64,000 bases of DNA from Candidatus Woesearchaeota archaeon (GTDB lineage: Archaea > Nanobdellota > Nanobdellia > Pacearchaeales > GW2011-AR1). The first letter of the stretch is position 1. Each line of letters starts with the position of its first letter. The translations under genes and the position numbers were made by a program. The notes beneath the pieces are model-generated. The model was not told the DNA's origin, searched no databases, and worked only from the letters and a program-made list of their open reading frames with translations. The stretch lies in NCBI GenBank assembly GCA_964467035.1, contig CAYXNX010000004.1, positions 89-64,088 of the forward strand, in the 5' to 3' direction. Positions 16,001-53,845 of this stretch are shown piece by piece.

Positions 16001-19000
16001 AGATACAGAAACAAACATAACATGTTCTGTTGAGGAAAATGTCAATATTTCTTTGTATAGGGATGGTGTTTTGATGGGCTCTTCTGTTGGAGGGAGTATC
16101 TCTGACATACAATCCTTAGATATTGGAACTTACAATTATGTATGTAATAGTTCTGAGACATCTCAATACAGGCCCAACTCGATAAGCAATACTTTAAATA
16201 TAACTAAGAAAGAAGATAACATAGGTTTATTCCTCAATGGAAATCAAAATAATTTGACTATTGCCTATGGAGAAGAAAGTAATGCTACTGCAATTTCCGA
16301 TTCAGGAACTGAACAATTGTTTAGAGATGGTATTGAGATAAGTAATCCAGATATAAACAATTTAGGAGTTGGTTATTATGAGTATTTGGCTAATTCTACA
16401 GGAAATTCCAATTATTCTTCTGGCGGTCCTGTTGGATATTATCTAAATGTTACTAGGGCAAGTCCTGGCCTTGAGTTTTCCAGTGAAAATGGATTCAAAA
16501 TATATAAAGGCCAAAATACAACTATTGTATGTAATTCTTCAGATGAAAACCTTCTTGTTAATCTTTATAGGGATGGTTCTTTAGTAAATACATCTAATGG
16601 AAGTGTAAGCGAGTTTGTTGATTTTTCAAGTGGAAGTTATGATTATAAGTGTAACACTACAGGAAATAATAATTATTCTAAAGAGGAGATATCTCAAAAT
16701 CTTAATGTCTCAAATAAAACAGAAACTAAATTAGTCCTTGATTCTAGTGAAGGATGGACCATATCTGAAAAGGAGGAAACTACTCTTTCCTGTGAAATTG
16801 AAAATCATGATGAAACAAATGCCTCTTTATTTATAGATGACACTCTGGTTTCAAGTCCTTATAATTTTAATGATTCTCTAGGAGATTATAGCATAAAGTG
16901 TAATTCAAGTGAAACAGAAAATTATAGTTCAGAAACAAAAACTAAAGAATTAAATGTTAGAGAAGAAGGAAGTTGTAATTTAAGTTTTAGTAAGGATTCT
17001 GCATATAGAAAAGAAAATTTTACTGTTTATTGTAATTGCTTAGGCAATAGCCAAGAGCAATTGTTTAGAGAAGGCAATAATGTAACAGAAGAAATTGGCA
17101 AAAATGTTTCATTGGATAGTGCAGGAACATATGGCTATTTATGTTATGCTAATCAAAGTTCTCAATATCTTTATGCTGAAAATACTTCTTCCTTTACAAT
17201 AACTAAAACTCCTTCGGATATAAATTTAACACTTAATGGGGCAGAAAACAATATAACTGTTAGCCAGGAAGAGAATGTAGATATTGTATCCAGTATGGTT
17301 AACCCCTCTGAAGGAAGTATAACTGTTTTTGAAGACGGAAGTATAATACGGGAAGGAGAAAATAGAGTCTCTTTCCTTAAGGAGTTTAATAATCCAGGCA
17401 AGTATAAAATAACATCAAAATTTTCAGGAAACTCTGACTATAGTTCTACTAATGAAAGTTATTATGTAAATGTTCTTAATACAGAAGCTCCTGAAATTAA
17501 TTTGATTTCTCCTGAAGATAATTCCTGGATTTCCACAACAAGCAAAAATTTCAAATTTTCAGCAGATGATGAAGATGATGAAGTCAATTGTTCTTTATAC
17601 ATTAATGGAGGTGAAATTTCAAGTAAACAGGTTTCAACAGGAACTGAGCAACAATTTAGTTTTAATGGTTTAGATGAAGGAGAGAATCAAAAATGGAGTA
17701 TAGATTGTAAGGATTCTGCAGGAAATTATGCAAATAAATCCAGGAATTTCAATGTTGATTTAACAAAACCAAATGCCACTATTCTTTCTGAGGATATGAA
17801 TGTATCAGACAGTACCCCTACAATAGAAGTAGTTATGGAAGATAACTATGCTTCTAATTTATCCTATGAAATTTATGTGGACGATTTGGATAACACACAA
17901 GGTTTTAAATTAAACAAAGAAGGCTCTGGAATTGAAAACGGAACACCCACAAACATTACTCTAGACCAATTATCAAAAGGGACTTATAAAGTATATGTAA
18001 AAGCTATTGATAACGCAGGCAATACTTTTTCTTCTGAAACAATTACTATAGACATTTCCGGAAGTGTGATGTTCCTATTAAGTCCTGATAATAATTACCA
18101 TAGCAGTGACGATGATATAAACTTTACATTCAGGTTCTCATCTGAAACCCCTGAAATGAACTGCAGTCTTTACATTAACGATACAATTGTTGCTAATAAC
18201 GAATCTACAGAAGAGGGTGTAAATACTACTTTTGAGATATTTGATATTCCTGATTATTTTTCAACAAAATGGAGTGTAAAATGTTTCAAACCCTCGGATC
18301 CAGAAGTTAATGCAAATGATACTTATAATCTAAGAGTTGATACAGAAAAGCCCAAGTGGAAAAATCATAGTAGATACTATAATGCAAGTGAAACAGGTAT
18401 AACATACATTAATGTGACATTTACAGATAATTATGAAGTTGGAGATATTATAATGGAGAATGATTTTGATGGTGGGTGGAAAAACACTACTTTAAATTGT
18501 GAAGGAAACAGGACTTATAAGAAATGTAGCTATTCAGAAAGACTTCATGGAGGAAACCATACATATAGGTTTATTGGAAATGATTCAACAGGACAAGTAA
18601 ATAAAACACCTTACTTTAATCATCTTATTATAGAAAAATACGAATTCCTGTTAAATGATAAGGATTCGGATATTTGGGTGCAACCAGGAGCAGTAGTGAA
18701 GGTATATTCAAATTTTGTAGAGCCGGAATCAGGGGATGTTCATGTTTATAGAGAAGATACAAAAATAGGGACATGCAGTAATGCTAACGGATGTAGTTAT
18801 TATCCTTCTTTTGAAGAACCAGGAGTTTATAACATGACAGCTAATTTTTATAGCAATTATACTGATAAAACATATAAGAGAAACCATCTTGTTTATGTTA
18901 ATGGTACTCCACCTAAAACTAATATCTATAAGAATACATCCCATGTAGAGCAAGGGTATGAAAATATCTACATTAACTGGACAGCCAGTGATTCATTTTT

Positions 19001-22000
19001 AAACAATTCAGAATTTAATATAACTGATCCTGATGGAAATTTAATTTATAATTCTTTTAATAGTGCTGGAGAAGTTATTTTACAGCTTGATAATTTAACT
19101 CGTGAAGGGACCTATGATATAAGATTATATGCAGATGATTATTCAGGTAATAAGAATGAATCGCAGGATACTTTTGAAGTTACAGACTCTATGTCTCCTT
19201 CTCTTTCAATTTTTAAGAACCAATCAGAAGTTGAATATAACGAAGAGTCTATATATATTAACTGGACTTCTACAGACCTTAATCTAGATACAACTGAATT
19301 TAATGTGACTTATCCTAATGGAACTCTTATTTATGAAAGCACTTCAGAAACAGGAGAAATAAATTTAACTCCAGGGGATATTACAGAACTAGGAGATTAT
19401 GAAATTAATTTATGGGCAAATGATACCGCGGGTAATGAAAATTCAATTAGTGAAATTTTTGAGGTGGTAGATTTAGGATCTCCTGAAGTAAATATTCATT
19501 CTCCAGAAAATAAAACTTATGGTATTGAGGAATTGTTAGTTAATATTACTGCTAATGATGAACATGGGATTGACCAAATTTGGTATAATTGGAATGGAAC
19601 AAATGTAACTTATACAAATCCAACTAACGTAACATTTAATCAAGGATTGAACACTCTAAAAGCATGGACAAATGACACTTCGGGAAATATAGCTAAGGAT
19701 AATGTTACATTTACTATAGATACAGTTCCTCTTAATATAAGTATATTAAACCCTGGAAATAATTCTAAATTCAACTATTCTAATATCATTTTCAATGTTT
19801 CTTCAAACAAGGAAATGGAATGGTGTGGAATATCCATTGATGATGGAGATAATATTACAATGGAATTAAATAATTCGGGGACAGGAGCAAATTATTCAGA
19901 TACTTTCGAGGATAGAGAGCATTACTTTGAAGTAAGTTGTAATGATAGTGTTGGGAACACAGACACCTCTGGGAAATATTTCTTCTTAGTTGATACAATA
20001 AATCCTAATCTTTCAATTTTTAAGAATGAAACAGAAGTTGAATATAACGAAGAGTCTATATATATTAACTGGACTTCTACAGACCTTAATCTAGATACAA
20101 CTGAATTTAATGTGACTTATCCTAATGGAAGTGTAGTTTATTCCTCAGGTAATAGTGATGGGGAATTCGGTTTATCTCCTGCAAATCTAACTTCGGTGGG
20201 ATATTATAATGTTAGCTTGTGGGCCAATGACACAACAGGCAATGAAAATTCAATCAACGATAGCTTTGAAGTTTTTGCAGAAGTTGAACTGAATATATCA
20301 AAAACAAGCAATCTTGAAACAATTGATCCTACTGGAGGAGAGTTTAATTATATAATAAATATCTCAAATATTGGTTATGGGGATGCAAAAAATATAACTT
20401 TAGTTGAAAACTATCCTGAAAATGTAACATTTATTAATTCTACCCCTACGCCTGATTCAGGAAACAATACTTGGAATTTTAGTGTTGTGGAAGAAGGAGA
20501 AAATAAAATCATAGATATAATAGTGGATGCAAATTATGGTATTGAAAATGGAACTGAATTAGTAAACATAGTGAACCTTACCTATCTTGGAAGAGATAAA
20601 ACTGAAAAAAATATTAGTGCTATAGAAATAACAAAAATTATTGATGAAAATCTCCCAAGTGCTTTATTAATATCTCCTTCAAATGCTTCCATATTTAATG
20701 AGTCTAATGTTGAATTCATTTGCTCAGGAATGGATAGTGAATCTGTGCAAAAGATAAAGTTGTATGGTAGTTGGGGAAGCGGATGGGAAGTTAAATCTGA
20801 AGAAGAAGTTAATGGAACCTCTACTTCTGCAACATTTAATGAGGATGTTTTAGATGAGGGGAAATATATTTGGAGTTGCGAGGTTATAGATATTGGCGGA
20901 AATAAAGTTATGGCTTCTCAAAATAGAACATTTACAGTAGATGAAACTCCTCCAACAGTAGATTTAATAGACCCTGTAGGAAATAAAACAGTAGGTGATA
21001 AAAATATAGAGCTTACCTATAATGTTAGTGATAATCTTTCGAATGTTGAATCGTGTGAATTGTTTATTGATAATTCTTCTGTTAAATCAAGCAACAATAT
21101 AAATGAAAATTCTGAAAATAATTTCAATGTAAGTTTAAATAACAGGGTATACGAATGGAAAGTATCTTGTATAGATGAAACAGATAATGAAGGATTTTCT
21201 GATACTGAGACATTTAATGTAGAACTTTTGTTAGATGTTACCTTGAACACCCCAAAAAATAATTCTTATCTTAATGATAGTAATGTAGAATTGAATTGTT
21301 CTGCAGAGTCAGGATATCAACTAAGTAATATGACTATTTTTCTGAAAAATGGGACATGGACTAATAAAACATTTAATGTTTCAGGATATACCAACACTTC
21401 AATCTGGGAGGTAGAAAACCTTTCAGAAGGAGAATCTGAATGGTATTGTTCTGCAAGCAATATTGAAGGAAATGAGTCTACCTCTATTAACAAAAATACC
21501 TTTTATGTTGATTTGACAAATCCTTATATTGAGTTAATTGAACCTGGAAATAATAGTATAAAGAATGAAGAAGAAACCACTTTTAAGTATAATGTGACTG
21601 ATAATATATCCCTTATACCAAGATGTGATTTTTATTTGGATGGAGCAAAAAACGAGAGCTTTTTCAATGTAAGTAAGAATACAGTCCAGGAGTTTGGTAA
21701 GGAGGTATCTGAGGGTAGGCATAACTGGAGTATAAATTGTAATGATACTTCAGGCAGGTTAGGTTCTTCTCCTGTATTTTATTTCAATTATACTGGTGCT
21801 AGGTATACTGTTAATATAACCAATCCTTACACAGATATATATGAATCGCATTTCCATCTCCCTCCAACCGAATCCTGGTTTAGTAATTATACAGAAGCAT
21901 ATTTTAACAAAACCTATGATGTTAATGCTACAATAGATGTATTCAAATCAATATATGGTTGTTCCGCAAGTCTTATTATTAAACCAGACAATTTAACATA

Positions 22001-24692: not shown

Positions 24693-24734
24693 AAATAATA
24701 AATTTATAAATAATGATAAATAAGAATAAATAAG

Positions 24735-27700
24735 ATGCCAAGGGTAAAAAAAGGGGAATACAATAGAATAAAAAAGAAACTACTTTTAAATATATTTACT
24801 TTGATGTTTTTTATTATTATTTTATCAGGTCTTGTTTTAGCTGGAGGGAATAAGGCTGTTTGGACTTATGTAAACAAACCAAATGGAGACCCTGCTGAAG
24901 GAGCTAATGCAACCTACCGTGTTTTTTTAGAAGGCGATACAGGAGGATTCCCCGAATCTGAACAGTGTTACTGTGTTTCTTATCCAGGTGAAACTGCTTC
25001 TGATGGAAGTATGGTGGATGATCTAAGAAATTTAAAATATGAATCAACTTGTGCTTTTGGAGGAAGAGAAAAAGGAGATAGCTGTGGCTTACATTGGTCA
25101 GAAGGAGATCCAATATGGATTTTAGCAGATGGAAGTACAATGGATCCCCCGTTAGGAACAGGCAATGTTTCAGATACAATAGATGCATTTGGAACACAAA
25201 AGCTAGACAACATAACTCTTAGCTCAGGGCCAAATAATCCTCCGAATATTGACAGTGTTTCTCCTGGTTCGGGAAATTGGTATAATGAGTCTTCTTCCCA
25301 AGGTATTTCAGTAGAGGTTAATACTAATGAAGATTCAACATGTAGATGGAGTAAAAGCCCTATGGACTATTCATCAAAACCATATGATTTTACAGGAACA
25401 CAGTTAACTCATAATTATATCCTGGATTTGTGGCAAGAAAATGCAAATAATATTTACATAACTTGTCAGGATTCAGAAGGAGCTAATAGTGATGAGTATC
25501 ATTTAATACTGAACAAGGATACTACTTCTCCTGTTACTGATGATGATTATTCTTATAATGGGGGTTGGTATAATCAAAATGCAATTATTAATTTGAATGA
25601 GCAAGATTCTGGCTCAGGTGTAGATACTACCTATTATTGCATTGATGACTCAGATACATGTTCTCCTTCTCAAATATATAGTGATTCAGTTAATATCTCT
25701 GATGAGGGAACGAGTTACTTAAGATATTATTCAATAGACAATGTTGGAAATATCCAGGAAACCCAGTCTGTTGAAGTAAAAATAGAAAAAAATGCTCCGA
25801 TTACAGAAACAAACTTTACTAATAATAATACATGGGTGAATACAACCCAGTATGTCTGGCTGAACTATACTGATTCTGGCAATGTTTCAGGAAAAGATTG
25901 GACAAAGTATTGCACAGATGCTGGTTGTGATCCTTCAAGTGGAACAGATTATACAAGCCAGGTAGAATTTTCATCTGATCAAGAAACTAGCTTCAGGTAT
26001 GCAAGTAAAGATAATGCAGGAAATATTGAGACAACAAACGAATTAATTATAAAAATAGATAAAACACCTCCTACTACATCAGACGATTACACTCATGATG
26101 GAAGTTGGTATAACGACAATGCAGATATAACTCTTAATGAAAATTGTGATATTTCAGGATGTGAGTGGACAAAATACTGCACAGGAGAAGAATGTAATCC
26201 AAACACTGATTATACAGGAGAAACTATTGACTTTTCTGAAAATGGAACTCTAAGATATTATTCAAAAGATAATGCAGGCAATATCCAAGATGTTAGAGAG
26301 ACAACCATACTTATAGATAAAAAAGCTCCAGATATAAATGACGATTATGCCTATGATGATTTTTGGATAAATCATTCAACAGGAACAATAACATTAACCC
26401 CGAGTGATGCCGGAGGAAGTGGGTTAGAAAATGATCCTGATGCTGTTAAAATATGTGGGGGAGATGGGTGTGACCCTGAATCAACAAGTGGAATAAATTC
26501 TCCTTATGAATTAGATTATAGTTCTGAACAAGAAACTGTTTATAGATATCAATCATATGATAAAGCAGGAAGTGGCTCAGAAATAGGGAATTTTACAGTA
26601 AAAATAGATAAAACACCTCCAAATACCTATGATGATTATGCCTATAATGATACTTGGAATAATAAAAATGCTTCAATAAATTTAATTGAATCAGACCTTC
26701 CAGATCCTGCAAATTCAGGAATAAATATTACTTATTATTGTACTACAGATAATCTCAATGATTCCTGTGTTCTTGAAACAAAATATATAGGAGAAAAAAT
26801 AAATTTTTTTGAAAGCGGAGTTCTTAGGTACTATTCAAAAGATAATGCAGGCAATACTCAGAATGCTAAAGAAGCAATCATTAAAATTGATAAACAGAAT
26901 ATCTCAATTGCAAATGCCTCTGTTTTAATAGAAAATGGTTCAACTTATTCTACAGAAACAACTCTCCATTTTGATTATTTTGGATTTGAAGATCAAGCGC
27001 AACTTTCAGGAATAGATGGTTATTATTATAATTTTTCAAACAATGAAGGAACAACTTCAGGAAGCTGGGATACAGACCAAAATGGAGTTCTATCCGGAGC
27101 TAGCCAAGGGAATGTGAGTGTTTATGTATGGGGTAAGGATAAAGCAGGGAATATAGGTCCTGCAGTAAGTGATTCTATTATAGTAGATTCTGTCAATCCG
27201 GTTTTTTCTAATTGGAATAATTCTCAAATAAAAATGTCTGATTCAGGACCAATGAATATCAATGTAACTATAACAGATGAAACTTCTGGGGTAAAAGGAA
27301 TGCCTTCTATAAGATATAAATATGGAGAAGATAGTTGGTCTGAATGGAAAAATATAAGTTTGGTTTCCGGACAAAACTACACTTATGATATACCTGACCC
27401 AAATGGATGGTATGATTATTACAATGAAAACGTTTCTTGGCAGGTTAGAGCTAGAGATAATGCAGGAAATGAAGTAGATTCATCTATACATACTTTTCTT
27501 ATAGGCAGTGATGAACCAGCACCCATTGTAATACAAAAGAAACTAGAGTTTTTGAATGAAACAAAAGATTTTGTAAGATATAAAATAACAGATAAGGTAC
27601 ATAATACATTAAACAATACAGATATGTCTGATGTCCAGTTTGGAGATGGAGATATAATTCAGAATATAACACCGCCTGAAGACACATTTGACATAATTAA

Positions 27701-29000
27701 AGGAGAAGTTAAGATAAAAGAGAATAATGTTAAAATAGAGAAAGATTCTAAAAATAAAAACCATACATTTGAAACTGCTTATGCAGAATGGAATGGACAC
27801 ACATACAGATCTGTTATCCATGAAGTCGTTATCCCGGGTTATGGTGGTCCTTTTGATATAGGTGTAGATACTCCTCCTTCAGTCAAGCCTTCTGATGATG
27901 TAAGGGGAGACATAAACCTCATTAATATGAATCTAGATATTGGTAAAGATGTGGAAGTTAATTATTGGATAACTGATACAGAAAATAATGTAATAAACGG
28001 GTTAGAAGGGCAGAAAATGGTTTTTGCGGGGTCATTAGAAAATACATCTACTTTTGGGAAATTGAACTCTCCGTCTATTGAAGGAAATTATAGATTTTGG
28101 GCAGCAGTTACCTGGGCAGATGGGCATAATGCTAGTGCTTTTGATAGTTTTAAGGTAGAATCTGGAGGAGATGAAGGGGGTGGAGGCGGAGGTAGTGCAG
28201 GAGGAATTATAGGGAGTGTGGTGGAAGAACCGGAAAAAGAAACAGAAAAGAAAAAATACTTTGAGTTTGATATAAGTTTACCTCTTAAGAGAATAGAAAG
28301 AAATGAAATATTGTCGATATTAACAGGAATAGAAAATTTAGAACATAATACTTCTAGAGAAGTATCTATTGATTATACTATTGTAGATGAAAATAACAAT
28401 AGTATAATTAATGAAGGGGAAACAAAAACAGTAAATATTTCGAAATGTTTTTCTAAAAATATTTTGATTACCAATCAAACAGAAATAGGAGAATATACTG
28501 TTATAGCAGAATTGAATTATGGAGATTTTTCAACAATTTCAAGGGCAACTTTTGAAATAGTACCTGAAAAGACAAAAAATGTCATTAAAGAAAGTAAAAA
28601 TGTATCCTGTTGTCTTTGGTGTATAATAAGTGTCATATTGCTTTTGATAATAATCATTTATTATTTGTGGAGAATAAACAGGAATAACAACCAGATGGAT
28701 GATTCAGAAATTAAAGAGATTTTAAAAGAATCCATATCTGAAGTAAAATCTAAAATAGATCAAATCAAACCAAATAAACAAATATTAGAGAGGATGTTAT
28801 TAATAGAAAAAGAGGGTAAAAACAGAAAAAATATGAAGAAGACTTTAAAGAAATATATGCAAGAATCCATTTATACAAAACATAATAAAAAAATAGAGAT
28901 CATTTGTTTAATAGCTATAATTGCATTTATAATTTTAGGTTTTATATTATTCTGTTTAAGACCTGAAACATTATGTATTGGAGAAATTATATGGAATTAA
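24735..29000 (+). CDS. large surface protein with repeated Ig-like modules of about 95 aa and C-terminal TM helices
   Basis: N-terminal anchor LLLNIFTLMFFIIILSGLVLAGG. At least 5 modules DDY..(D/N)G.WYN...(Y/K)YC...LRYYS(K/I)DNAGN. A Gly-rich linker and two C-terminal hydrophobic helices. Confidence 0.65.
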   Translation: MPRVKKGEYNRIKKKLLLNIFTLMFFIIILSGLVLAGGNKAVWTYVNKPNGDPAEGANATYRVFLEGDTGGFPESEQCYCVSYPGETASDGSMVDDLRNLKYESTCAFGGREKGDSCGLHWSEGDPIWILADGSTMDPPLGTGNVSDTIDAFGTQKLDNITLSSGPNNPPNIDSVSPGSGNWYNESSSQGISVEVNTNEDSTCRWSKSPMDYSSKPYDFTGTQLTHNYILDLWQENANNIYITCQDSEGANSDEYHLILNKDTTSPVTDDDYSYNGGWYNQNAIINLNEQDSGSGVDTTYYCIDDSDTCSPSQIYSDSVNISDEGTSYLRYYSIDNVGNIQETQSVEVKIEKNAPITETNFTNNNTWVNTTQYVWLNYTDSGNVSGKDWTKYCTDAGCDPSSGTDYTSQVEFSSDQETSFRYASKDNAGNIETTNELIIKIDKTPPTTSDDYTHDGSWYNDNADITLNENCDISGCEWTKYCTGEECNPNTDYTGETIDFSENGTLRYYSKDNAGNIQDVRETTILIDKKAPDINDDYAYDDFWINHSTGTITLTPSDAGGSGLENDPDAVKICGGDGCDPESTSGINSPYELDYSSEQETVYRYQSYDKAGSGSEIGNFTVKIDKTPPNTYDDYAYNDTWNNKNASINLIESDLPDPANSGINITYYCTTDNLNDSCVLETKYIGEKINFFESGVLRYYSKDNAGNTQNAKEAIIKIDKQNISIANASVLIENGSTYSTETTLHFDYFGFEDQAQLSGIDGYYYNFSNNEGTTSGSWDTDQNGVLSGASQGNVSVYVWGKDKAGNIGPAVSDSIIVDSVNPVFSNWNNSQIKMSDSGPMNINVTITDETSGVKGMPSIRYKYGEDSWSEWKNISLVSGQNYTYDIPDPNGWYDYYNENVSWQVRARDNAGNEVDSSIHTFLIGSDEPAPIVIQKKLEFLNETKDFVRYKITDKVHNTLNNTDMSDVQFGDGDIIQNITPPEDTFDIIKGEVKIKENNVKIEKDSKNKNHTFETAYAEWNGHTYRSVIHEVVIPGYGGPFDIGVDTPPSVKPSDDVRGDINLINMNLDIGKDVEVNYWITDTENNVINGLEGQKMVFAGSLENTSTFGKLNSPSIEGNYRFWAAVTWADGHNASAFDSFKVESGGDEGGGGGGSAGGIIGSVVEEPEKETEKKKYFEFDISLPLKRIERNEILSILTGIENLEHNTSREVSIDYTIVDENNNSIINEGETKTVNISKCFSKNILITNQTEIGEYTVIAELNYGDFSTISRATFEIVPEKTKNVIKESKNVSCCLWCIISVILLLIIIIYYLWRINRNNNQMDDSEIKEILKESISEVKSKIDQIKPNKQILERMLLIEKEGKNRKNMKKTLKKYMQESIYTKHNKKIEIICLIAIIAFIILGFILFCLRPETLCIGEIIWN

Positions 29001-29540: not shown

Positions 29541-30170
29541 ATCTCTTTAAGAAGTTACAAAGTTGTTTGTCTTAAATCTTTAAATTCAAAATTCCATTCT
29601 TCTTGGGAATACTTAATGTATTGTTCAATTACTTCAGCAGTTACTGCTCCAACACTTCGGAAAAATTTTCCAGGGCTCCATAAATGAGGTTTAACTGTTC
29701 CGTCTCTACTAAAAAAAGCATACCATTGAGTACACTTTTTGAAAAAAATTCTCGCGCTTCCTCCTTTCAAAAATTGTAAAGTCATACTCACCGAAATTGT
29801 CGACGGAACTTGTGCAAAACAATGCACATGGTCTGGCATAACTTTTAACTCAATAATTTCTATTTTATGTTTTTTTGCAACTTGTTTGATTGCATCTTCA
29901 CAAATTTTCCGAGGGTATTCTTTTTTGAAAACCGATACATTGTATTTTGGTCTCCAAACAAAGTGATAAGCACTTTGTCCTATTGCGTGTTTTGTATGTT
30001 TTAATTCCATTTTTCTCCATAGCTTTCGCGCACGAAAGCAAACATTTATTTAGTTTGAGAAAGTTTCAACTAGGCAATTTTATGGCGGTTTAACCGCCTT
30101 CTTTCTCGTAATAAATAAGTTTTTTAGAAATAAATACATTTGCACCTCGTCTTAAAAGACGAGGCAGCAG
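29500..30170 (-). mobile_element. IS200-like element (tnpA only); ends approximate
   Basis: Y1 transposase ORF flanked by subterminal hairpins: 29518-29539 downstream, and 30022-30039, 30084-30098 and 30145-30164 upstream. No tnpB/iscB. Confidence 0.5.
29555..30010 (-). CDS. tnpA: IS200/IS605-family Y1 (HUH) transposase TnpA
   Basis: 151 aa. YHFVWRPKY start, HUH motif PDHVHCF, LKGGSARIF, LWSPGKFFRSVG and the catalytic-Tyr region VIEQYIKYS. Confidence 0.85.
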   Translation of the reverse strand: MELKHTKHAIGQSAYHFVWRPKYNVSVFKKEYPRKICEDAIKQVAKKHKIEIIELKVMPDHVHCFAQVPSTISVSMTLQFLKGGSARIFFKKCTQWYAFFSRDGTVKPHLWSPGKFFRSVGAVTAEVIEQYIKYSQEEWNFEFKDLRQTTL

Positions 30171-30660: not shown

Positions 30661-30796
30661 TTTTTGGATTACTGATAAATTTCGACCGCAGAGAGTATAT
30701 ATGTCCAAAGGAAGAGAGAGTAGGGTGTCTTGTTTTGGTTCTTTTCTAAAAGAACATTTAGGGTCGTCATTTGTCATTTTCTGGGCTACCAAAAGA

Positions 30797-30804
30797 TTTA
30801 TATA
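30797..30804 (+). promoter_or_regulatory. TATA-box-like element about 30 nt upstream of ATG 30829
   Basis: tttatata. Overlaps the left inverted-repeat arm at 30788-30800. Confidence 0.4.
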
Positions 30805-30828
30805 GTAATTGTATTATTGATTATACAT

Positions 30829-31419
30829 ATGTATAAAAAGATAAGATTTACAGAAAATACCTTGCAAGTATTATCTTTATTTACGAACGATTTTAATAGA
30901 GAATATTATATTCGAGAAGTTGAAAAATTACTAAAAATTAGTCCGAGAACATCACAGCTTATTCTTGAGGATTTGGAAAATAAAGGAGTGATAGAATCAA
31001 AAACTAAGGGCAAGATTAAAACATTTAAATTAAATCCAAGCGAGTTCACTAAAAGGTATCTTGCTTTCGTAGAACAATATAAAGCGATTGCATTTTTAGA
31101 AAAGAAACTTTTGATTAAAGAAATAATAGAAAAGATCATTCCCAATATTAAAGGAATCGGCATAATTTTTGGAAGTTATGTTAAAGGATTAGAAAAAGAA
31201 GGTTCTGATTTGGATATTTTTATTGTAGGAAGTTATAACAATGACGAAATAAAAAAAATTTCAAAAAATTTAGGTATAGAGATAAGTATTAAATGTTATC
31301 CTCTGAAAACATTTGAGAAGAATCTAAAAAAAGATATCCTTCTGAAAGAAGTTTTAAAAAATCATGTAGTTTTTCTAAATGTAGAACAATTTATACAGAA
31401 GGTCTTCAAAAATGGATAA
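30829..31419 (+). CDS. nucleotidyltransferase (MNT-like) with N-terminal winged helix
   Basis: GSYVKGLEKEGSDLDIFIVGS matches the minimal nucleotidyltransferase signature. N-terminal wHTH-like segment. Overlaps the HEPN gene by 8 nt. Confidence 0.75.
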   Translation: MYKKIRFTENTLQVLSLFTNDFNREYYIREVEKLLKISPRTSQLILEDLENKGVIESKTKGKIKTFKLNPSEFTKRYLAFVEQYKAIAFLEKKLLIKEIIEKIIPNIKGIGIIFGSYVKGLEKEGSDLDIFIVGSYNNDEIKKISKNLGIEISIKCYPLKTFEKNLKKDILLKEVLKNHVVFLNVEQFIQKVFKNG

Positions 31420-31894
31420 AATAAAATGGTGTGCTGAGAAAAAAGGAGGATTAAGTTTAGTTGAGCCAAACTCTGATCTCGCAAATGCTTATATCAAGAA
31501 AGCGGAAGAAGCACTTGAATCAATGAGGGTAAACATAATTAAAGATTGGAAAATCTCAACAGCATACTATACAATCTATTTCTCATTATACGCTGTCTTG
31601 ATGAAATTGGGTATAAAATGTAAGATTCATTCTTGTACTATTGAATTTGCAAAAAGATTCCTCGAAGAATATTTTGAAGAAGCAGAGTTAAATTTTACTG
31701 AGGACTCATTAAAAGCTAGAGTCGATTCCCAATATTATATAGACCGAACTGTTCCAGATGAGCAATATAACAAAATGATTCAAAAAGCTCCTGAATTTCT
31801 AGTTAAGTGCAAATCTGTTATTATCAAATTAAACGAGAAAAAGGTTAATGAGATAAGAGATAAATTTCAAAAGGAAATAAGCAAGAGGAGATAA
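31412..31894 (+). CDS. HEPN-domain protein (partner of the MNT)
   Basis: 160 aa, helical. N-terminal AYIKKAEEALESMR is typical of HEPN. Translationally coupled to the upstream nucleotidyltransferase. Confidence 0.7.
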   Translation: MDKIKWCAEKKGGLSLVEPNSDLANAYIKKAEEALESMRVNIIKDWKISTAYYTIYFSLYAVLMKLGIKCKIHSCTIEFAKRFLEEYFEEAELNFTEDSLKARVDSQYYIDRTVPDEQYNKMIQKAPEFLVKCKSVIIKLNEKKVNEIRDKFQKEISKRR

Positions 31895-36377: not shown

Positions 36378-36394
36378 TAGTGTTTAGTGTTATA

Positions 36395-37234
36395 ATGGTT
36401 TATATTCCTTATGACTGGGAAACTTGTTTAAGGAGAAAATGTAAAAGATATAGGTATTCTGACAAAAATGTGAAAAATTATAGTTACTGGATTCAAAGAT
36501 TTTTGAAATGGAATGGGAAGGAATTGAAGTATATTTCAAAAAAAGATGTTAGTGCTTTTTTGCAAAAATTAGATAATCAAAATCTTTCAGGAAATACCTT
36601 AAATCAATGTCATATGACGCTTAAATTCTTATTTGAAGATGTTATGGATAAAAAGATGTAGATAAATATTAAGTATGCAAAAGTGCCTAAAAGAATTCAA
36701 AAAGTTTTGAAAAAAGAAGAAATAAAATTATTAATTAAAAACATTAAAAATTCTAAACACAAAATTATGATTGCTTTGATGTACTCAGCAGGTTTAAGAG
36801 TAAGTGAGTTAATTAATTTAAAAGTTGAAGATTTAGAATTAAAAAATAGATATGGATTTGTGAGAAATGGAAAGGAAGGAAAAGATAGATTATTTATTAT
36901 TTCTGAAAGACTGGCACCTGTTTTAAAACAAATTATTTTAGATAATAATTTGGGAAAAGAAGATTATTTATTTTTAAGTAGAAGAAATAAAAAATATAGT
37001 GTAAGAACAATACAGAAAATTGTTAAGGATGCAAGTAAAAAAGCTGGTCTTGATTTTAAAGAAATTCACCCACATACATTAAGACATAGTTTTGCAACTC
37101 ATTTAATTGAACAAGGAGATTGTGTTGGAGATGTGCAAGCAATGTTAGGACATAAATCTCAGGAAACTTCTTTAAACTATATCCATTCATCAGGGAAAAT
37201 GTTAAATATAAAAAGTCCTTTTGACAGATTATAA
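36395..37234 (+). pseudogene. Xer-like tyrosine recombinase interrupted by one in-frame TAG (36659-36661)
   Basis: The N-terminal SAM-like domain (36395-36658) and the catalytic domain (36662-37234) are in the same frame. Catalytic signature: R in GLRVSEL, HPHTLRH, LGH and Y in LNYIH. No IntI-type insertion. Confidence 0.75.
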
Positions 37235-44435: not shown

Positions 44436-44693
44436 TTATTCTTTCTTTTTTCTAAAACATTCATTACAATAGACTGGTCTGTCTTGAGATGGTTTAAAGG
44501 GAACTTCGCATTCCTTACCACATTCTGCACAAACTGCTTTATGCATTTTACGTGGACCAAAGCTTTTTCTAAATCCTCTTCCGCCTTCACTAAAACTTTT
44601 GTTTCCAGGTCTGTTTCCAGGTCTGTTTCCAGGTCTGTTTCCTTGAAACTTTTTTCTCGGCCTTTCAGAACCATGTTCTGTATTTTCTTTCAT
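44436..44693 (-). CDS. CxxC-x17-CxxC zinc-binding protein with (GNRP)3 repeat
   Basis: C-terminal MHKAVCAECGKECEVPFKPSQDRPVYCNECF. The repeat is encoded by a 3 x 12-nt tandem at 44601-44636. Confidence 0.6.
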   Translation of the reverse strand: MKENTEHGSERPRKKFQGNRPGNRPGNRPGNKSFSEGGRGFRKSFGPRKMHKAVCAECGKECEVPFKPSQDRPVYCNECFRKKKE

Positions 44694-45203
44694 TTATTTA
44701 CTCCTTTGCCCTGAGGCATTCCTAAAATAAATAAAGAGGGTTTATAAATGATTGGAATAAAATTAACAAAGTTTAGGATTATACATTTAGGGTAAAAATA
44801 GGGAGTTTATAAAAAACTAAAGATTTGAATATTGTAGAAAATTATTGGAAGTGTATTTGTTTAAATTCAGAATTAAAGAAATTTCAAGCAGTATAATTAT
44901 ATGAAAAAGGGTGTTTAAATTTTATTAAAGTAGAATAATTTGAAAATAATTTTAAGAATAGGATGTAGAGAGTAGCAAGGTTTTGATGTTTTGGGATTAA
45001 GGTGCAGAGTTTAAAAAATGATAGGGATTATACAAGAGTTAATTGATAGTGTTGATAAGATAAAGAAATTATTAATAGTAACTTTTAAAACCCCTTTATA
45101 ATTCTATGAAATATACTAGATAGGAAGAAATGCCTAAAAATAAATGCTTTGCGATTTTCATTCGTCTAAAATTCCGGTTTCGAATGAGTAATCGAACAAT
45201 TAT

Positions 45204-45287
45204 GTGGGAGTGCCGGAGTGGTCAAACGGGACGGACTTAAGATCCGTTAGCTTAGTGCTTACGCAGGTTCGAATCCTGCCTCCCACA
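45204..45287 (+). tRNA. tRNA-Leu (anticodon UAA)
   Basis: Cloverleaf folded by hand. Acceptor GUGGGAG/CUCCCAC, anticodon stem ACGGA/UCCGU with loop CUUAAGA, long variable arm, T arm GCAGG-UUCGAAU-CCUGC, discriminator A, no encoded CCA. Confidence 0.9.
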
Positions 45288-45339
45288 TTTTTAGAAAGTT
45301 TTATAATAGATTCTATCTTTTATTTCAAAAGAGGCAAAT

Positions 45340-51063: not shown

Positions 51064-51099
51064 GAAAAAACTTAAAAACTTGCTAATTTTAGTGTAATT

Positions 51100-51358
51100 G
51101 TAGACCAGACCGGCGCGTTAGCTCTGCGCCATTTGCAAGTGAGCTCTAGGCAGGTCGCAAGGGGGTAAGTGATTCTTTTTACAAAGAGTCTTTGCCTGGA
51201 CTGTGATATTTTGTCCTATTTGACCTTGCTCCTGCAAACCGGGTCAGACCTTGATCGGAGCAGCCCTAAACAGGAAACAAGGTGCTTATAGGGTAGCAAA
51301 ATTGAGAAAGGGTAGAGGTAGCTTTTTGTGGAAAGGAGAGCAAACCCCTGTGGTCTAC
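51100..51358 (+). ncRNA. probable SRP (7S) RNA
   Basis: G+C-rich noncoding island. The 5' GUAGACCA pairs with the 3' UGGUCUAC. Alu-like hairpin 51112-51130 has loop AGCUC complementary to GAGCU at 51141-51145. GGGUCAGACC..GGAGCAGCC (51241-51265) resembles the helix-8 motif GGUCAGGUCCGGAAGGAAGCAGCC. A T-rich tract follows. Confidence 0.65.
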
Positions 51359-51573
51359 ACTGTAATGTTTCTTTTTGGGGTTTTCTCGTTTCGTCGTAAA
51401 CTCCGAAGGAGCAAACCCCTGTGGTCTACACTGTAATGTTTCTTTTTGAGGTTTTCTCGTTTCGTCGTAAACTCCGAAGGAGCAAACCCCTGTGGTCTAC
51501 ACTGTAATGTTTCTTTTTGAGGTTTTCTCGTTTCGTCGTAAACTCCGAAGGAGCAAACCCCTGTGGTCTACAT
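51338..51573 (+). repeat. 71-bp tandem repeat: three full units plus a partial fourth unit of about 23 nt
   Basis: Units start at 51338, 51409, 51480 and 51551. Each unit is the last 21 nt of the putative SRP RNA plus a T-rich tract and a spacer. There is one substitution between unit 1 and units 2-3. Confidence 0.9.
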
Positions 51574-51594
51574 TGTAAAAAGAACCTAAGGTTC

Positions 51595-51720
51595 TCTTTA
51601 CGAACTCTCCTCAGATAGGACAGCAAAGCTGTCTTGTTATTGGAATTATAAAAAGAGTTACTTTGGTTTTCTTTACGAACTCTCCTCAAATAGGACAGCA
51701 AAGCTGTCTTGTTATTGGGA
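51595..51720 (+). repeat. 2 x ~51-nt direct repeat (period 75) with hairpin gacagc-aaa-gctgtc followed by CTTGTTAT
   Basis: Copies at 51595-51645 and 51670-51720, with 2 substitutions. Confidence 0.85.
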
Positions 51721-51785
51721 TTTTTTATTAAAAATATATTTTGATTTATAACAAATGTTAAAAAGGAAATTCCATTTTTTGGGGA

Positions 51786-52070
51786 ATGAGAGATGAAATA
51801 AAAATTAGCAATATAAATTTGAAAACATATGCAAGGACTAAAGGATTTGATGAACAATCTATTGAATATGGGGGTTTATTTGTGGAGGGAGGTAGTTATA
51901 GCCAAGCAAATTTAAAATTAAAAGAAGAAGCAAAAAGAAAAGGATATGAAGAAGTTATTAATGTTACAGATATTCCTCCTTATGAAATTCAGTGCAGAAA
52001 TAACCCAGAAAAAAGAAAAGTTTTTGGGGTGCGGGCACTTGGAGTTAGAATAAAAAGAGAAAAAGAATAA
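51786..52070 (+). CDS. hypothetical protein
   Basis: 94-aa ORF with no recognisable family. Confidence 0.4.
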   Translation: MRDEIKISNINLKTYARTKGFDEQSIEYGGLFVEGGSYSQANLKLKEEAKRKGYEEVINVTDIPPYEIQCRNNPEKRKVFGVRALGVRIKREKE

Positions 52071-52179
52071 ACTATTTATAATCTGATTTCTATTATTATT
52101 TGAGGTGTTATTATACCCAATATGCCGATGTCATCCCATCACTTGAAATTAAATAAGGAAAAAATAGCCAAGTAATAAA

Positions 52180-52572
52180 ATGCCACACCAATGCGTTCAT
52201 TGTAGCAAAGTTTATCCAGATGGTTCAAAAGAATTATTGGAAGGTTGTAGTTGTGGAAGTCATTTTTTCTTTTATATAAGAGAAGAACAAATTGAAAAGA
52301 TGAAAGAAAAATCCGAAGAGATGGATTTAAGTGATGAAGAAAAAAAGAAAATTGAGCAAGATGTTAGAGAAATTATAAAATCAGAGGGAGATGATACTCC
52401 TGTTGTTCTTGATTTGGAGAGTATTAGAATTCTAAAACCAGGTAAATTTGAAATTGATATTACAAACCTTTTTAATGAAAAAAAACCAGTCATATATAAA
52501 TTAGAAGAAGGCAAATATGTTATTGATATTGCTTCAACGATGAAGAAAAGAAAAAATGAAAAAAATACTTGA
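52180..52572 (+). CDS. Zn-ribbon-containing protein
   Basis: N-terminal CVHC..x..CSCG zinc ribbon followed by an acidic helical region. Confidence 0.5.
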   Translation: MPHQCVHCSKVYPDGSKELLEGCSCGSHFFFYIREEQIEKMKEKSEEMDLSDEEKKKIEQDVREIIKSEGDDTPVVLDLESIRILKPGKFEIDITNLFNEKKPVIYKLEEGKYVIDIASTMKKRKNEKNT

Positions 52573-53845
52573 ACAAGAATTTAATAAAATTGATATTTCA
52601 GATAAAAGTGAAGAATATTTGAAAGGAATTGCAAAAAAAACAATTGATAATTTGAAAATTAAATTAAATAAGAAAAATATTGATGCTACACCTTTTATTG
52701 GCGGGAGTTTGGCTAAAGGGACTTTAATTAGAAAAAAGAAACAAGATATTGATATTTTTGTTAGATTTAATCAAAAATATTCAGAAGAGGAGATAGGATA
52801 TTTATTTAAGAAAATATTTTTTTGGTTTAGGATTCCGGGTGAGAGAATTAAAGTAAAAAGACACCATGGTTCAAGAGATTACTATAAAATAATATTTAAA
52901 AAAAGCGGAGTTATTGTAGAAATTGTGCCTACTGTTAGAATTTCAAAACCTGAAAATGCGAGAAATTTAACAGATTTGTCTTATTTTCATGTAAATTATG
53001 TAAAGAATAAAATTAACCAAGGCAAAAATCTTGATAAAGAAATTAAAATTGCAAAATCCTTTGTGCATGGACAAAATTGTTATGGTGCTGAATCATATAT
53101 TAAAGGATTTTCAGGTTATTTGATTGAACTTTTAGTTATACATTATAAAAGTTTTAGGAGGTTTTTGACTGAGATTTCAAAAGCAAAAACCCAAATTGTT
53201 TTAGATCCTGAAAAACATTACAAAAATAAAGAAGATATTTTTAAAAAAATGAATAAAACGAAAATCAGTTCTCCAATTGTTTTTATTGATCCAACTTATA
53301 AAGACCGGAATGCTGCACGAGCTCTTTCTGGGGAAACTTTAAGAAAATTTCAAAAAAAGGCAAAGGAATTTTTAGAAAAACCTGATGAGGAATTTTTTTA
53401 TCCTAAAAAAATAGATATTTATAGAATAAGAGAAAAGGCGTATGAAAGCAAAGGAATTTTTGTGATTTTTGAAATTTCAACAAAAAAACAGCCAGGAGAT
53501 ATTGCTGGAACAAAATTATTCAAATTTTCCAATTTTTTGAAAAAAGAAGTTAGCAAATATTATGGGGTTGAAGAATGGCAGTTTGATTATCCGGGGCTGA
53601 AAAAAGCAAGAGTTTATGGAGTTTTGAAAAGAAAAAAAGAAATTGTTTTTGAAGGTCCAAGAATTGAAATGGAAGATGCTGTGAAAAATTTTAAAAAAGT
53701 CCACCCTATTTGGTATGTTGAAGAGGGCAAAATAAAAAGTGCTATGCCTACTGATATTCCTGTTAAAAGATTTTTGAAAGAATTTAAGAAAGCTCATAAA
53801 AAAACTATGAAACAAATGGGGACTAAAAAAATCAAGATTGTGTAG
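52556..53845 (+). CDS. cca: CCA-adding tRNA nucleotidyltransferase, archaeal class I
   Basis: 429 aa. IGGSLAKGTLIRKKKQDIDIFVRF signature near the N-terminus; size and layout are typical. Confidence 0.65.
   Translation: MKKILEQEFNKIDISDKSEEYLKGIAKKTIDNLKIKLNKKNIDATPFIGGSLAKGTLIRKKKQDIDIFVRFNQKYSEEEIGYLFKKIFFWFRIPGERIKVKRHHGSRDYYKIIFKKSGVIVEIVPTVRISKPENARNLTDLSYFHVNYVKNKINQGKNLDKEIKIAKSFVHGQNCYGAESYIKGFSGYLIELLVIHYKSFRRFLTEISKAKTQIVLDPEKHYKNKEDIFKKMNKTKISSPIVFIDPTYKDRNAARALSGETLRKFQKKAKEFLEKPDEEFFYPKKIDIYRIREKAYESKGIFVIFEISTKKQPGDIAGTKLFKFSNFLKKEVSKYYGVEEWQFDYPGLKKARVYGVLKRKKEIVFEGPRIEMEDAVKNFKKVHPIWYVEEGKIKSAMPTDIPVKRFLKEFKKAHKKTMKQMGTKKIKIV

What the first reader, a model, noticed from the sequence alone, without database searches (positions are those of the whole stretch)
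51100..51573. The 3' end of the putative SRP RNA plus its terminator is tandemly repeated (71-bp period, 3 full units plus a partial fourth)
Units start at 51338, 51409, 51480 and 51551. Each contains the last 21 nt of the RNA (gagcaaaccccTGTGGTCTAC, which pairs with the 5' end GTAGACCA), the T-rich tract tttctttttg and a 40-nt spacer. The units are almost identical, so the duplication is recent. One possible cause is repeated integration and excision of an element that targets the SRP RNA 3' end, with att-site duplication as happens at tRNA genes. Others are replication slippage, alternative 3' ends giving SRP RNA isoforms, or an assembly artefact. The spacer (ggttttctc) can also pair imperfectly with gagcaaacc of the next unit.
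Basis: partly seen in the sequence, partly recalled or inferred. Interest (0 to 1): 0.65.

Follow-up and report, generated by a model that had tools for sequence, protein, structure and literature searches.

The report
Conserved echo repeats after SRP RNA
The last 22 bases of this archaeon's signal-recognition-particle RNA gene really are repeated four times in a row with a hairpin-forming spacer, and related Woesearchaeota carry the same kind of "echo" in 2 to 5 copies, so it looks like an old, maintained and fast-resizing part of the gene's 3' region rather than an assembly error or a virus-integration scar.

Summary
There is a 71-bp tandem repeat, 3.4 copies, 98% identical, at 51338-51578. 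Each unit starts with the last 22 nt of an archaeal SRP RNA (51098-360; Rfam RF01857, full length, E 3e-19, below gathering score; 21 compensatory pairs in a 7-species alignment).

It is not an assembly artefact. In run X1 the k-mer depth is 1x in the flanks, 2x at the unit-to-unit junction and 3x in the unit. Two runs from another study carry the SRP-to-unit1-to-unit2 junction with no mismatch.

The main new result is that the repeat is not private to this genome. Five SRP lineages of DPANN/Woesearchaeota carry 2-5 copies of their own 3' core. The cores are identical or nearly so within a genome and differ between genomes. Every downstream core is preceded by an "anti-core" GGTTT(G/T)C that can pair with it.

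Among W, A and B the spacer is 87-97% identical, with an 18-mer identical in all three, although 4-fold codon sites are near saturation. That points to purifying selection.

No integrase, inserted element or viral copy was found at the site.

Best reading: an old, selected SRP RNA 3' trailer module, probably for fail-safe termination or alternative 3'-end closure (inferred, no RNA data). It is resized by slippage and homogenised with the gene, and was recently expanded here.

The parts
51071..51079 (+). TATA-like box CTTAAAAAC, about 25 nt upstream of the RNA 5' end. The motif (C)CTTAAA(A/T)A is present at the same distance in all related loci, so transcription probably starts at or next to the mature 5' end, with no long leader.
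   Evidence: Sequence read; relatives' upstream sequences. Inference from position; no promoter assay.
51098..51360 (+). Archaeal SRP (7S) RNA gene, about 262 nt, a short form lacking helix 6. The 5' UGUAGACCA pairs with the 3' UGGUCUACA (helix 1).
   Evidence: RF01857 full-length hit, E 3.4e-19, 84.5 bits. RF00169 reaches its gathering score on the core. MFE rod, z -3.7. Alignment fold of 7 species: 82 pairs, 21 with compensatory changes.
51338..51359 (+). Core copy c1, the gene's own 3' end: GAGCAAACCCC is the 3' strand of basal helix 5 and UGGUCUACA is the 3' strand of helix 1.
51409..51430 (+). Core copy c2 (exact).
51480..51501 (+). Core copy c3 (exact).
51551..51572 (+). Core copy c4 (exact). 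It is followed by TTGTAA and then unrelated sequence, so this is the end of the array.
51368..51376 (+). Oligo-T tract TTTCTTTTT, 8 nt after c1, a candidate archaeal terminator. The same tract recurs at 51439-51447 and 51510-51518.
   Evidence: Sequence. Its function is inferred from the established oligo-T termination of archaeal RNA polymerase.
51377..51387 (+). Anti-core GGGGTTTTCTC (GAGGTTTTCTC at 51448-51458 and 51519-51529). It is complementary to GAGCAAACCCC of a core in 10 of 11 positions in unit 1.
   Evidence: Folds. An anti-core is present before every downstream core in all five lineages.
51387..51404 (+). 18-mer CGTTTCGTCGTAAACTCC, the loop of the anti-core/core hairpin. It is also at 51458-51475 and 51529-51546, and is identical in lineages W, A and B.
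51338..51578 (+). The whole 71-bp tandem array (3 full units plus 28 nt).
   Evidence: depth support.
51577..51722 (+). Two 75-nt units (87% alike), each with strong hairpins, followed by T6 at 51721-51726. They may be old, decayed units of the same array (marginal similarity) or a separate dispersed hairpin element.
   Evidence: D2; z -6.0 and -3.2; similarity to the 71-bp unit, p about 0.01-0.05; 3-5x depth in X1, and another upstream context in X10/X11.

Best explanation
The array is a genuine, lineage-conserved 'echo' of the SRP RNA 3' terminus. The basic module is: gene-borne core c1, a short variable linker (often an oligo-T tract), an anti-core GGTTT(G/T)C, a loop, and a second core c2, followed in most lineages by an oligo-T tract. 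This module is shared by at least five SRP lineages of Woesearchaeota-like DPANN archaea, which shows it is old or repeatedly regenerated. Its spacer is under purifying selection; this is inferred from conservation against saturated neutral sites. At the DNA level the number of units changes by slipped-strand mispairing or unequal recombination between the direct repeats, and the copies are kept like the gene's own 3' end by gene conversion and/or selection. This is inferred from within-genome identity, between-genome difference, and copy numbers of 2, 2, 3, 5, 2 and 4. The window's three near-identical 71-bp units are a recent expansion of that module. At the RNA level, which is inferred and not observed, the module is most likely the 3' trailer of the SRP RNA transcription unit. 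A polymerase that passes the first T tract, or has none to stop at as in lineages B and C, transcribes the anti-core and another core. The anti-core/core hairpin forms, the new GGUCUAC can close helix 1 with the 5' end, and the next T tract ends the transcript. Read-through molecules would therefore still end in a correct terminal helix, giving fail-safe termination and an alternative 3' end.
For: The repeat is real and is about 3 copies. SRP RNA identity and ends are established. The relatives are as follows. A (L011/L012) has 2 cores with period 65. B (L018/L019) has 3 cores. Strain variant B' (L021, identical SRP) has 5 cores. C (L026) has 2 cores. D (L027, a GTDB Woesearchaeota MAG with SRP only 71-75% identical) has 2 cores with 27/27 identity. 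Cores are identical within genomes W, A, C and D; B's copies differ by one or two bases. They differ between genomes (W CCCCTGTGG, A CCTCTCGG, C CCTCCCGG, D CCTTCGG). W's private T-to-C change in the core covaries with an A-to-G change in the helix-5 partner strand (pair 66-251, AU in 6 sequences and GC in 1) and is present in all 4 copies. 4-fold-site identity among W, A and B is 0.39-0.56 for the CCA-enzyme gene (about 80 sites per pair; the smaller OapC sample scatters 0.26-0.61), against a random value of 0.34. Yet the spacer from the anti-core to the next core is 27/31 (W-A) and 30/31 (A-B) identical, with an 18-mer identical in all three. All 9 kinds of inter-core spacer begin with the anti-core even where the interior is unrelated, and 8 of the 9 fold into the anti-core/core stem as their MFE. 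The anti-core-to-next-core distance is constant in X-type spacers, while the core-to-anti-core distance varies by 0-19 nt. B's one core substitution in the stem (C to T) keeps a G-U pair. In B and C the first T5 run follows only the last core. MFE folds of read-through transcripts pair the 5' end with the last core and the anti-core with that core's 5' half. In L021 the sequence just upstream of an internal core is a decayed copy of the SRP 3' strand, while the core itself is 22/22 identical to c1. tRNA-Leu in the same window has no such echo.
Against: There are no RNA data for this lineage, so transcription through the array, the real 3' ends and any hairpin are unobserved. The anti-core pairs with an invariant part of the core, so no true covariation test is possible. 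The echo is absent from three relatives (L014, L015, L016) nested among echo-bearing lineages, so it is dispensable or repeatedly lost or gained. Units 2 and 3 of the window fold no better than shuffles (z +0.46). MFE preference for the last core is not evidence of what happens co-transcriptionally. All relatives are short-read metagenome contigs, so copy numbers could be collapsed or chimeric; L012 looks like an A/B hybrid. The 18-mer is not conserved in C or D.
Confidence: 0.55

Rival explanations
1. A neutral minisatellite (VNTR). The SRP 3' end plus flank was duplicated by slippage. The array persists and resizes by unequal recombination, and gene conversion with the constrained first copy keeps the cores identical. 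It has no function.
For: There are head-to-tail units with 98% identity. Copy number varies between strains and species, including 3 against 5 cores on an identical SRP gene. The cores evolve in concert. The echo is absent in L014, L015 and L016, showing it is dispensable. Larger blocks that include flank are also duplicated in L021.
Against: Conversion with the gene cannot conserve a spacer that has no counterpart in the gene. Yet the spacer is 87-97% identical across lineages whose 4-fold sites are near saturation. The anti-core is retained in spacers whose interiors are unrelated, including the distant lineage D. Direct repeats 30-50 nt apart should be lost quickly if neutral.
Confidence: 0.25
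2. Scars of site-specific integration. An element that targets the SRP RNA 3' end, as islands target tRNA and tmRNA genes, integrated one or more times. Each event left a displaced core, and the element bodies were later deleted.
For: The core-spacer-core-...-core layout, with a core at both ends, is the layout of attL and attR. The principle that the target is regenerated and a displaced fragment marks the island's end is described for tRNA/tmRNA genes in PMC4383910. In L021 a block containing two cores plus a copy of the distal flank sits next to the gene.
Against: No integrase lies within 14 kb. The only Phage_integrase-family ORF is at 36683-37234, far from any core. No kb-scale insert lies between cores in any of the 8 echo-bearing loci, and there is no distant core copy on any contig. 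Neither the exact core, the spacer nor a generalised core was found in a real viral contig in IMG/VR; the 4 hits were chance matches in coding DNA. The three spacers in the window are identical, so they cannot be independent events. Spacers are homologous across species and all carry the anti-core.
Confidence: 0.07
3. The module is not part of SRP RNA biogenesis. It could be a separate cis element or small RNA that mimics the SRP RNA terminus, for example a protein-binding mimic or leader regulating the co-directional downstream genes, or a DNA-binding site array.
For: The spacer is conserved and the hairpin has a constant stem with a variable interior. In W, A and B a small conserved ORF (94-101 aa), OapC and the CCA-adding enzyme follow in the same direction.
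Against: The downstream gene is not conserved: C has OapC directly after the array, and D has a different neighbour. No promoter-like box was seen inside the units. The repeated part is exactly the SRP terminal strand, including GGTCTAC, which the hairpin does not need.
Confidence: 0.1
4. An assembly artefact: a single unit was inflated by the assembler.
For: Short-read assemblies can mis-size repeats longer than k. Logan contigs break at the array.
Against: Depth ratios of 1x, 2x and 3x fit the assembled structure. Independent runs from another study carry the unit1-to-unit2 junction. The same architecture appears in independent assemblies of relatives.
Confidence: 0.02

Closest known systems
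Displaced 3' gene fragments (attL/attR direct repeats) left by tyrosine-integrase islands in tRNA and tmRNA genes (Islander-type islands, PMC4383910)
   Same: There is a direct repeat of the 3' terminal about 20-45 nt of a stable-RNA gene immediately downstream of the gene. The gene-proximal copy completes the gene.
   Different: There is no integrase and no island. Spacers are 29-57 nt, homologous to one another and conserved between species. Every spacer carries a complement of the core. The target is SRP RNA, for which I found no described integration site in the searched literature.
Prokaryotic minisatellites / VNTR loci (e.g. mycobacterial MIRU-type intergenic repeats)
   Same: There are 50-100-bp head-to-tail units in an intergenic region. 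Copy number differs between strains. Units are homogenised within a locus.
   Different: The unit overlaps the functional end of an essential RNA gene. The non-genic part of the unit is conserved far beyond neutral expectation.
Tandem (fail-safe) terminators after highly expressed stable-RNA genes; oligo-T termination by archaeal RNA polymerase and by Pol III on 7SL RNA
   Same: In the window and in lineage A each unit supplies a T5-T6 run a few nt after a strand that closes the terminal helix. This is the context in which oligo-T terminators work (established knowledge, not tested here).
   Different: The whole terminal strand is repeated, not just the T run. In B and C the first core has no T run at all.
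Rearranged SRP RNA genes of Thermoproteus (permuted gene, BHB processing and circularisation; PMC4731332)
   Same: It is another case where an archaeal SRP RNA gene has an unorthodox arrangement around the point where the 5' and 3' ends meet.
   Different: Here the gene is colinear with the model (positions 1-317 in order). No permutation and no BHB motif were seen. The extra material is a repeat, not a rearrangement.

Membership tests
Archaeal SRP RNA (Rfam RF01857) | Covariance-model match over the full model at or above the gathering score | tested here: inconclusive
   Full model 1-317, E 3.4e-19, but 84.5 bits against a gathering score of 96.5. The same is true of all relatives (55.9-83.5 bits). 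The shortfall is explained by a 40-nt deletion of helix 6.
Archaeal SRP RNA (Rfam RF01857) | Conserved helix 8 / S-domain motif (GGUCAG...GA...AGCAGCC) | tested here: met
   Bacteria_small_SRP reaches its gathering score (40.2 against 40) on 51207-51305. The motif is invariant in 7 species.
Archaeal SRP RNA (Rfam RF01857) | Helix 1 formed by the 5' and 3' ends, and a long helix 5 supported by covariation | tested here: met
   82 consensus pairs, 21 with compensatory changes. Helix 1 pairs 3-7 with 258-262 are invariant Watson-Crick.
Archaeal SRP RNA (Rfam RF01857) | Helix 6 (SRP19 site) | tested here: not met
   40 model positions are deleted in the cmscan alignment. All clade members are about 260 nt.
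Integrase-mediated island at a stable-RNA gene (att duplication) | Direct repeat of the gene's 3' end | tested here: met
   4 exact 22-mers.
Integrase-mediated island at a stable-RNA gene (att duplication) | Integrase gene next to one repeat, with foreign DNA between the repeats | tested here: not met
   The neighbours are PKD/DUF4215 proteins upstream and a 94-aa ORF, OapC, the CCA-adding enzyme and TrmB downstream. Spacers are 29-57 nt in all loci. There are no distant cores.
Integrase-mediated island at a stable-RNA gene (att duplication) | A free element carrying the matching attP | tested here: not met
   There were 0 true hits for the core, the spacer or a generalised core in IMG/VR. The test is limited to exact-pattern scans of one collection.
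Minisatellite / VNTR | Head-to-tail units with copy-number polymorphism among close relatives | tested here: met
   L018 has 3 cores and L021 has 5 on identical SRP genes. Copy numbers are 2-5 across lineages.
Minisatellite / VNTR | Neutral evolution of unit sequence between species | tested here: not met
   The spacer is 87-97% identical where 4-fold sites are 39-56% identical.
Oligo-T (fail-safe) terminator array | A T run of 5 or more after each unit | tested here: inconclusive
   Present after c1-c3 in the window and after both cores in A. Absent after the first core(s) in B, C and D.
Oligo-T (fail-safe) terminator array | Transcripts ending at successive units | not testable with these tools
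   RNA runs hold only SRP cores of other DPANN lineages.
CRISPR array | Identical repeats separated by unique spacers, with cas genes nearby | tested here: not met
   The spacers are identical within the window and homologous between species. No cas domains were found in the ORFs scanned.
Permuted / circularised SRP RNA (Thermoproteus type) | Gene segments out of order | tested here: not met
   The model is matched colinearly, positions 1-317. BHB motifs were not searched for formally.

The most novel reading that the evidence does not exclude
In a clade of Woesearchaeota the SRP RNA is made with a selected 3' 'echo' domain. This domain is an anti-core hairpin plus a second copy of the helix-1/helix-5 closing strand. 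It would act as a built-in RNA switch for termination, 3'-end maturation or quality control, in which the 5' end can be closed by either core. The repeat number would tune read-through into the downstream genes. That would be a previously undescribed way of making the end of a universal RNA, and a rare case of an essential RNA gene carrying a selected, hypervariable tandem repeat.
Probability: 0.3. Interest if true: 0.75.

Novelty: new variant of a known kind. Interest (0 to 1): 0.6.

Why it matters
SRP RNA is universal and its ends are normally simple. How archaeal SRP RNA 3' ends are formed is poorly known, and nothing is known for DPANN archaea. A conserved, self-complementary echo of the terminal strand offers three things. 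First, it is a concrete and cheap hypothesis about termination and 3'-end formation that can be tested with one metatranscriptome or an in-vitro transcription assay. Second, it is a natural example of concerted evolution between an essential RNA and its downstream copies. Third, it is a hypervariable marker for strain typing of these uncultured archaea. There is also a practical caution: a repeat of a stable-RNA 3' end is usually read as an att site, and here that reading would be wrong.

Tried and rejected
1. Exact or degenerate DNA scans found no true hits. These covered the core, the SRP 5' end, the spacer and the D2 hairpin in genome contigs, metagenome contigs and viral contigs. The five metagenome hits and four viral hits were chance matches without an SRP.

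2. Loci found through the CCA-adding enzyme at 42-48% identity (L007-L010) had no SRP RNA nearby. The route that worked was OapC homologues followed by their contigs.

3. The 94-aa ORF has no word-sharing homologue, although syntenic 94-101-aa ORFs exist in A and B.

4. Similarity between the 71-bp unit and the downstream 75-bp D2 units was not significant with strict scoring and only marginal with permissive scoring (p 0.008-0.056). It is left as a possibility.

5. I looked for a link between D2 and the IS200-like transposase at 29.5 kb. There is no other D2 copy in the window.

6. Replication origin or ORB array (suggested by the neighbouring 'origin-associated' OapC gene): no Orc1/Cdc6 among the ORFs scanned (three large ORFs were not scanned), only direct repeats, and no skew turn. 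Dropped.

7. RNA-seq: metatranscriptomes contain only S-domain cores of other DPANN lineages.

8. Literature searches for SRP/7S RNA genes as integration sites or for DPANN SRP RNA 3' ends found nothing relevant.

10. The loop 18-mer has no complement of 7 nt or more in the SRP RNA.

Full report
OBSERVATION. The window is about 30% G+C. Its genes are archaeal: FttA/aCPSF1, a proteasome subunit, the archaeal CCA-adding enzyme, OapC and TrmB. The closest genomes by the CCA enzyme and by OapC are Woesearchaeota, Pacearchaeota and Nanoarchaeota MAGs, and the source is a microbial-mat metagenome.

Tandem Repeats Finder reports one strong array in the region: 51338-51578, period 71, 3.4 copies, 98% matches, no indels. 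It is by far the strongest tandem repeat in the 64 kb. The 22-mer GAGCAAACCCCTGTGGTCTACA occurs exactly at 51338, 51409, 51480 and 51551 and nowhere else, even with three mismatches allowed. The units differ only at 51378 (G/A) and 51573 (C/T).

THE GENE. With E-value reporting, Rfam's Archaea_SRP model matches 51098-51360 over its full length. The score is 84.5 bits (E 3.4e-19), below the gathering score of 96.5 because 40 model positions (helix 6) are missing. The bacterial small-SRP model reaches its gathering score on the S-domain core. The sequence folds as a rod with the 5' end paired to the 3' end. An alignment of seven related SRP RNAs gives 82 consensus pairs, 21 of them with compensatory changes. 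The repeated 22-mer ('core') is therefore the 3' strand of basal helix 5 plus the 3' strand of helix 1. A conserved CTTAAAAAC box sits about 25 nt upstream of the 5' end in this and all related loci, so there is probably no 5' leader.

NOT AN ARTEFACT. The k=31 contigs of run X1 break exactly where a de Bruijn graph should break at such an array. The gene-side contig has depth 8.9 and ends 30 nt into unit 1. The unit-to-unit junction 38-mer, expected twice, has depth 18.9. The 93-bp unit contig has depth 26.4, about 3x. The exit contig has 12.5 and the distal contig 8.3. No contig links the gene directly to the distal flank. Runs X2 and X3, from another study, have mismatch-free contigs running from the gene through unit 1 into unit 2.

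CONTEXT. Upstream are secreted PKD/DUF4215 proteins. Downstream, in the same direction, are a 94-aa ORF, OapC, the CCA-adding enzyme and then TrmB. The only Phage_integrase-family ORF is 14 kb away at 36683-37234. An IS200-like transposase lies at 29555-30010. tRNA-Leu at 45203-45288 has no repeat of its 3' end.

RELATIVES: THE KEY RESULT. DNA-pattern scans for this lineage found nothing. Contigs encoding OapC homologues did contain syntenic SRP loci. I label the lineages as follows.

- W (the window) has 4 cores with period 71.
- A (L011, L012) has its own core GAGCAAACCTCTCGGTCTACAC twice, 65 nt apart, with T6 after each.
- B (L018, L019) has three cores, separated by a 46-nt spacer Y and a 35-nt spacer X. 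Its first T5 run comes only after the third core.
- B' (L021) has an SRP gene identical to B but five cores. The extra 140 nt lie next to the gene. They consist of core, X', core, a 36-nt copy of the distal flank, and 21 nt that look like a decayed copy of the SRP strand just upstream of the core.
- C (L026) has two identical cores separated by 29 nt, with T5 only after the second.
- D (L027) came from a generalised pattern (core, 25-55 nt, core) that gave a single hit among 185,579 species representatives. It is a Woesearchaeota MAG whose SRP RNA is only 71-75% identical to the others. It has two 27/27-identical copies 62 nt apart.

Three other relatives (L014, L015, L016) have a single core. 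On an SRP distance tree the echo-bearing lineages are not a single clade: L016 is sister to W/A/B, and L014/L015 sit near C. So there have been either several losses or several gains.

WHAT IS CONSERVED.

(i) Cores are identical within genomes W, A, C and D, and nearly so in B, whose copies differ by one or two bases. They differ between genomes. W's private T-to-C change in the core pairs with a private A-to-G change in the opposite strand of helix 5 (pair 66-251), and it is present in all four copies. This is concerted evolution with the functional gene end.

(ii) Every downstream core is preceded by an anti-core, GGTTT(G/T)C with variable extensions, complementary to GCAAACC of the core. 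This holds for all nine kinds of spacer, including Y, J, C-type and D-type spacers whose interiors are unrelated. In eight of the nine, RNAfold's MFE closes the spacer with an anti-core/core stem.

(iii) In X-type spacers the anti-core-to-next-core distance is fixed, while the previous-core-to-anti-core distance varies by 0-19 nt, depending on the T tract. The conserved hairpin is therefore anti-core plus the following core.

(iv) Among W, A and B, 4-fold degenerate sites of the CCA-enzyme gene are 39-56% identical, against 34% expected at random; the much smaller OapC sample scatters from 26 to 61%. They are nearly saturated. Yet the spacer is 27/31 (W-A) and 30/31 (A-B) identical, and the 18-mer CGTTTCGTCGTAAACTCC is identical in all three. 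Conversion with the gene cannot explain this, because the gene has no such sequence. I infer purifying selection on the spacer.

(v) The one substitution in B's third core within the stem is C to T, which keeps a G-U pair in RNA. This is weak evidence for an RNA-level rather than a DNA-level structure.

HOW IT MOST LIKELY WORKS.

Shown: the array is real, old or recurrent, variable in copy number between close strains, homogenised, and carries a constrained hairpin-forming spacer.

Inferred at the DNA level: units are gained and lost by slipped-strand mispairing or unequal recombination between direct repeats 50-70 nt apart. The window's three near-identical units are a recent expansion, and L021 shows that larger blocks including flank can also duplicate.

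Inferred at the RNA level: the module is the 3' trailer of the SRP RNA transcription unit. In W and A a T5-T6 run follows each core. In B and C only the last core has one, so transcripts there should include all cores. In MFE folds of such read-through transcripts, the helix-5 partner strand pairs with the 5' half of the first core, each anti-core pairs with the 5' half of the following core, and the 5' end pairs with GGUCUAC of the last core. This uses all the conserved pieces. It suggests that a read-through transcript can still be closed into a correct terminal helix right before the next T tract, giving fail-safe termination and an alternative 3' end. This step is not observed. The available metatranscriptomes contain only other lineages' SRP cores. 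Thermodynamic folds say nothing about co-transcriptional choice. Units 2 and 3 of the window fold no better than shuffled sequence.

RIVALS. A purely neutral VNTR explains the dynamics but not the spacer conservation or the retention of the anti-core. Integration scars explain the core-at-both-ends layout. However, no integrase, insert, distant core or viral copy was found. The window's spacers are identical to each other and homologous to those of other species. A separate regulatory element for the downstream genes is unlikely, because the downstream gene differs in C and D. Assembly artefact is excluded.

COMPARISON AND NOVELTY. The layout resembles att duplications at tRNA/tmRNA genes (PMC4383910), and the dynamics resemble those of bacterial minisatellites. 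It fails defining features of both: there is no integrase or island, and it is not neutral. It is unrelated to the permuted, circularised SRP RNA of Thermoproteus (PMC4731332), since the gene here is colinear. I found no description of such a repeat at an SRP RNA gene in the searched literature. I class it as a new variant of a known kind: a tandem-repeat or terminator region at a stable-RNA gene. There is a real chance, about 0.3, that it is a functional RNA device not described before.

LIMITS. All relatives are short-read metagenome contigs. Copy numbers can be collapsed, and L012 looks like an A/B hybrid. The sample is 8 echo-bearing loci in 5 lineages. No covariation test of the anti-core stem is possible, because its partner is invariant.

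Noticed in passing
window 51577-51722 (and runs X1, X10, X11): Two 75-nt units (87% alike) lie right after the array, each with very stable hairpins (z -6.0 and -3.2), e.g. AGGACAGC-AAA-GCTGTCTT. In run X1 the first unit's k-mers have 3-5x the flank depth. In X10/X11, where this organism is absent, the same element follows a different sequence (...GTGGTCGAATCAGTGGGTC|CATTGTAAAAAG). So it is either a dispersed REP/MITE-like hairpin element or an old decayed unit of the SRP echo (similarity p about 0.01-0.05).
   Followed up: partly
window 51098-51360; L011, L012, L014, L015, L016, L018, L026, L027: The SRP RNAs of this whole group are about 260 nt and lack helix 6, the SRP19-binding hairpin (a 40-position deletion against RF01857). 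This keeps them below Rfam's gathering score, so they would be missed by default annotation.
   Followed up: partly
window 29555-30010 (-): An IS200-like Y1 transposase (PF01797, E 6e-28) with GC-rich hairpins in both flanks. No link to the SRP repeats was found.
   Followed up: partly
window 36380-37234 (+): A Phage_integrase-family catalytic domain (183 aa, E 2e-43), preceded by a 93-aa ORF in another frame or start. It is possibly a XerA-type recombinase with a mis-set start or a frameshift. It lies 14 kb from the SRP gene.
   Followed up: no
window 30730-31894 (+): An adjacent nucleotidyltransferase (PF01909/Polbeta) and HEPN-domain ORFs, the usual MNT/HEPN toxin-antitoxin-like pair, next to the transposase.
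   Followed up: no
window 10785-29000 (+): A 4635-aa ORF followed by a 1421-aa ORF. Giant proteins of this kind are typical of DPANN genomes. They were not analysed.
   Followed up: no
window 44600-44642: A perfect 12-bp tandem repeat TGTTTCCAGGTC, 3.6 copies, in the intergenic region between the ArgRS gene and tRNA-Leu.
   Followed up: no
L012 2560-2950 compared with L011 and L018: The L012 SRP locus is a mosaic. The upstream region and the 5' part of the SRP gene match lineage B (L018). The 3' part and the echo match lineage A (L011). This is either recombination between co-occurring lineages at this locus or a chimeric assembly.
   Followed up: partly
window 51786-52070 (+); L011 2439-2723; L018 2403-2705: A small ORF (94-101 aa) is conserved in position between the SRP echo and OapC in lineages W, A and B. 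It has no Pfam hit and no word-sharing homologue. It is absent in lineage C.
   Followed up: partly
window 51098-53845 and loci L011, L014, L015, L016, L018, L026: The gene order SRP RNA, (small ORF), OapC Zn-ribbon protein, CCA-adding enzyme is conserved across lineages with only about 70% protein identity. OapC and the CCA enzyme overlap or abut.
   Followed up: partly
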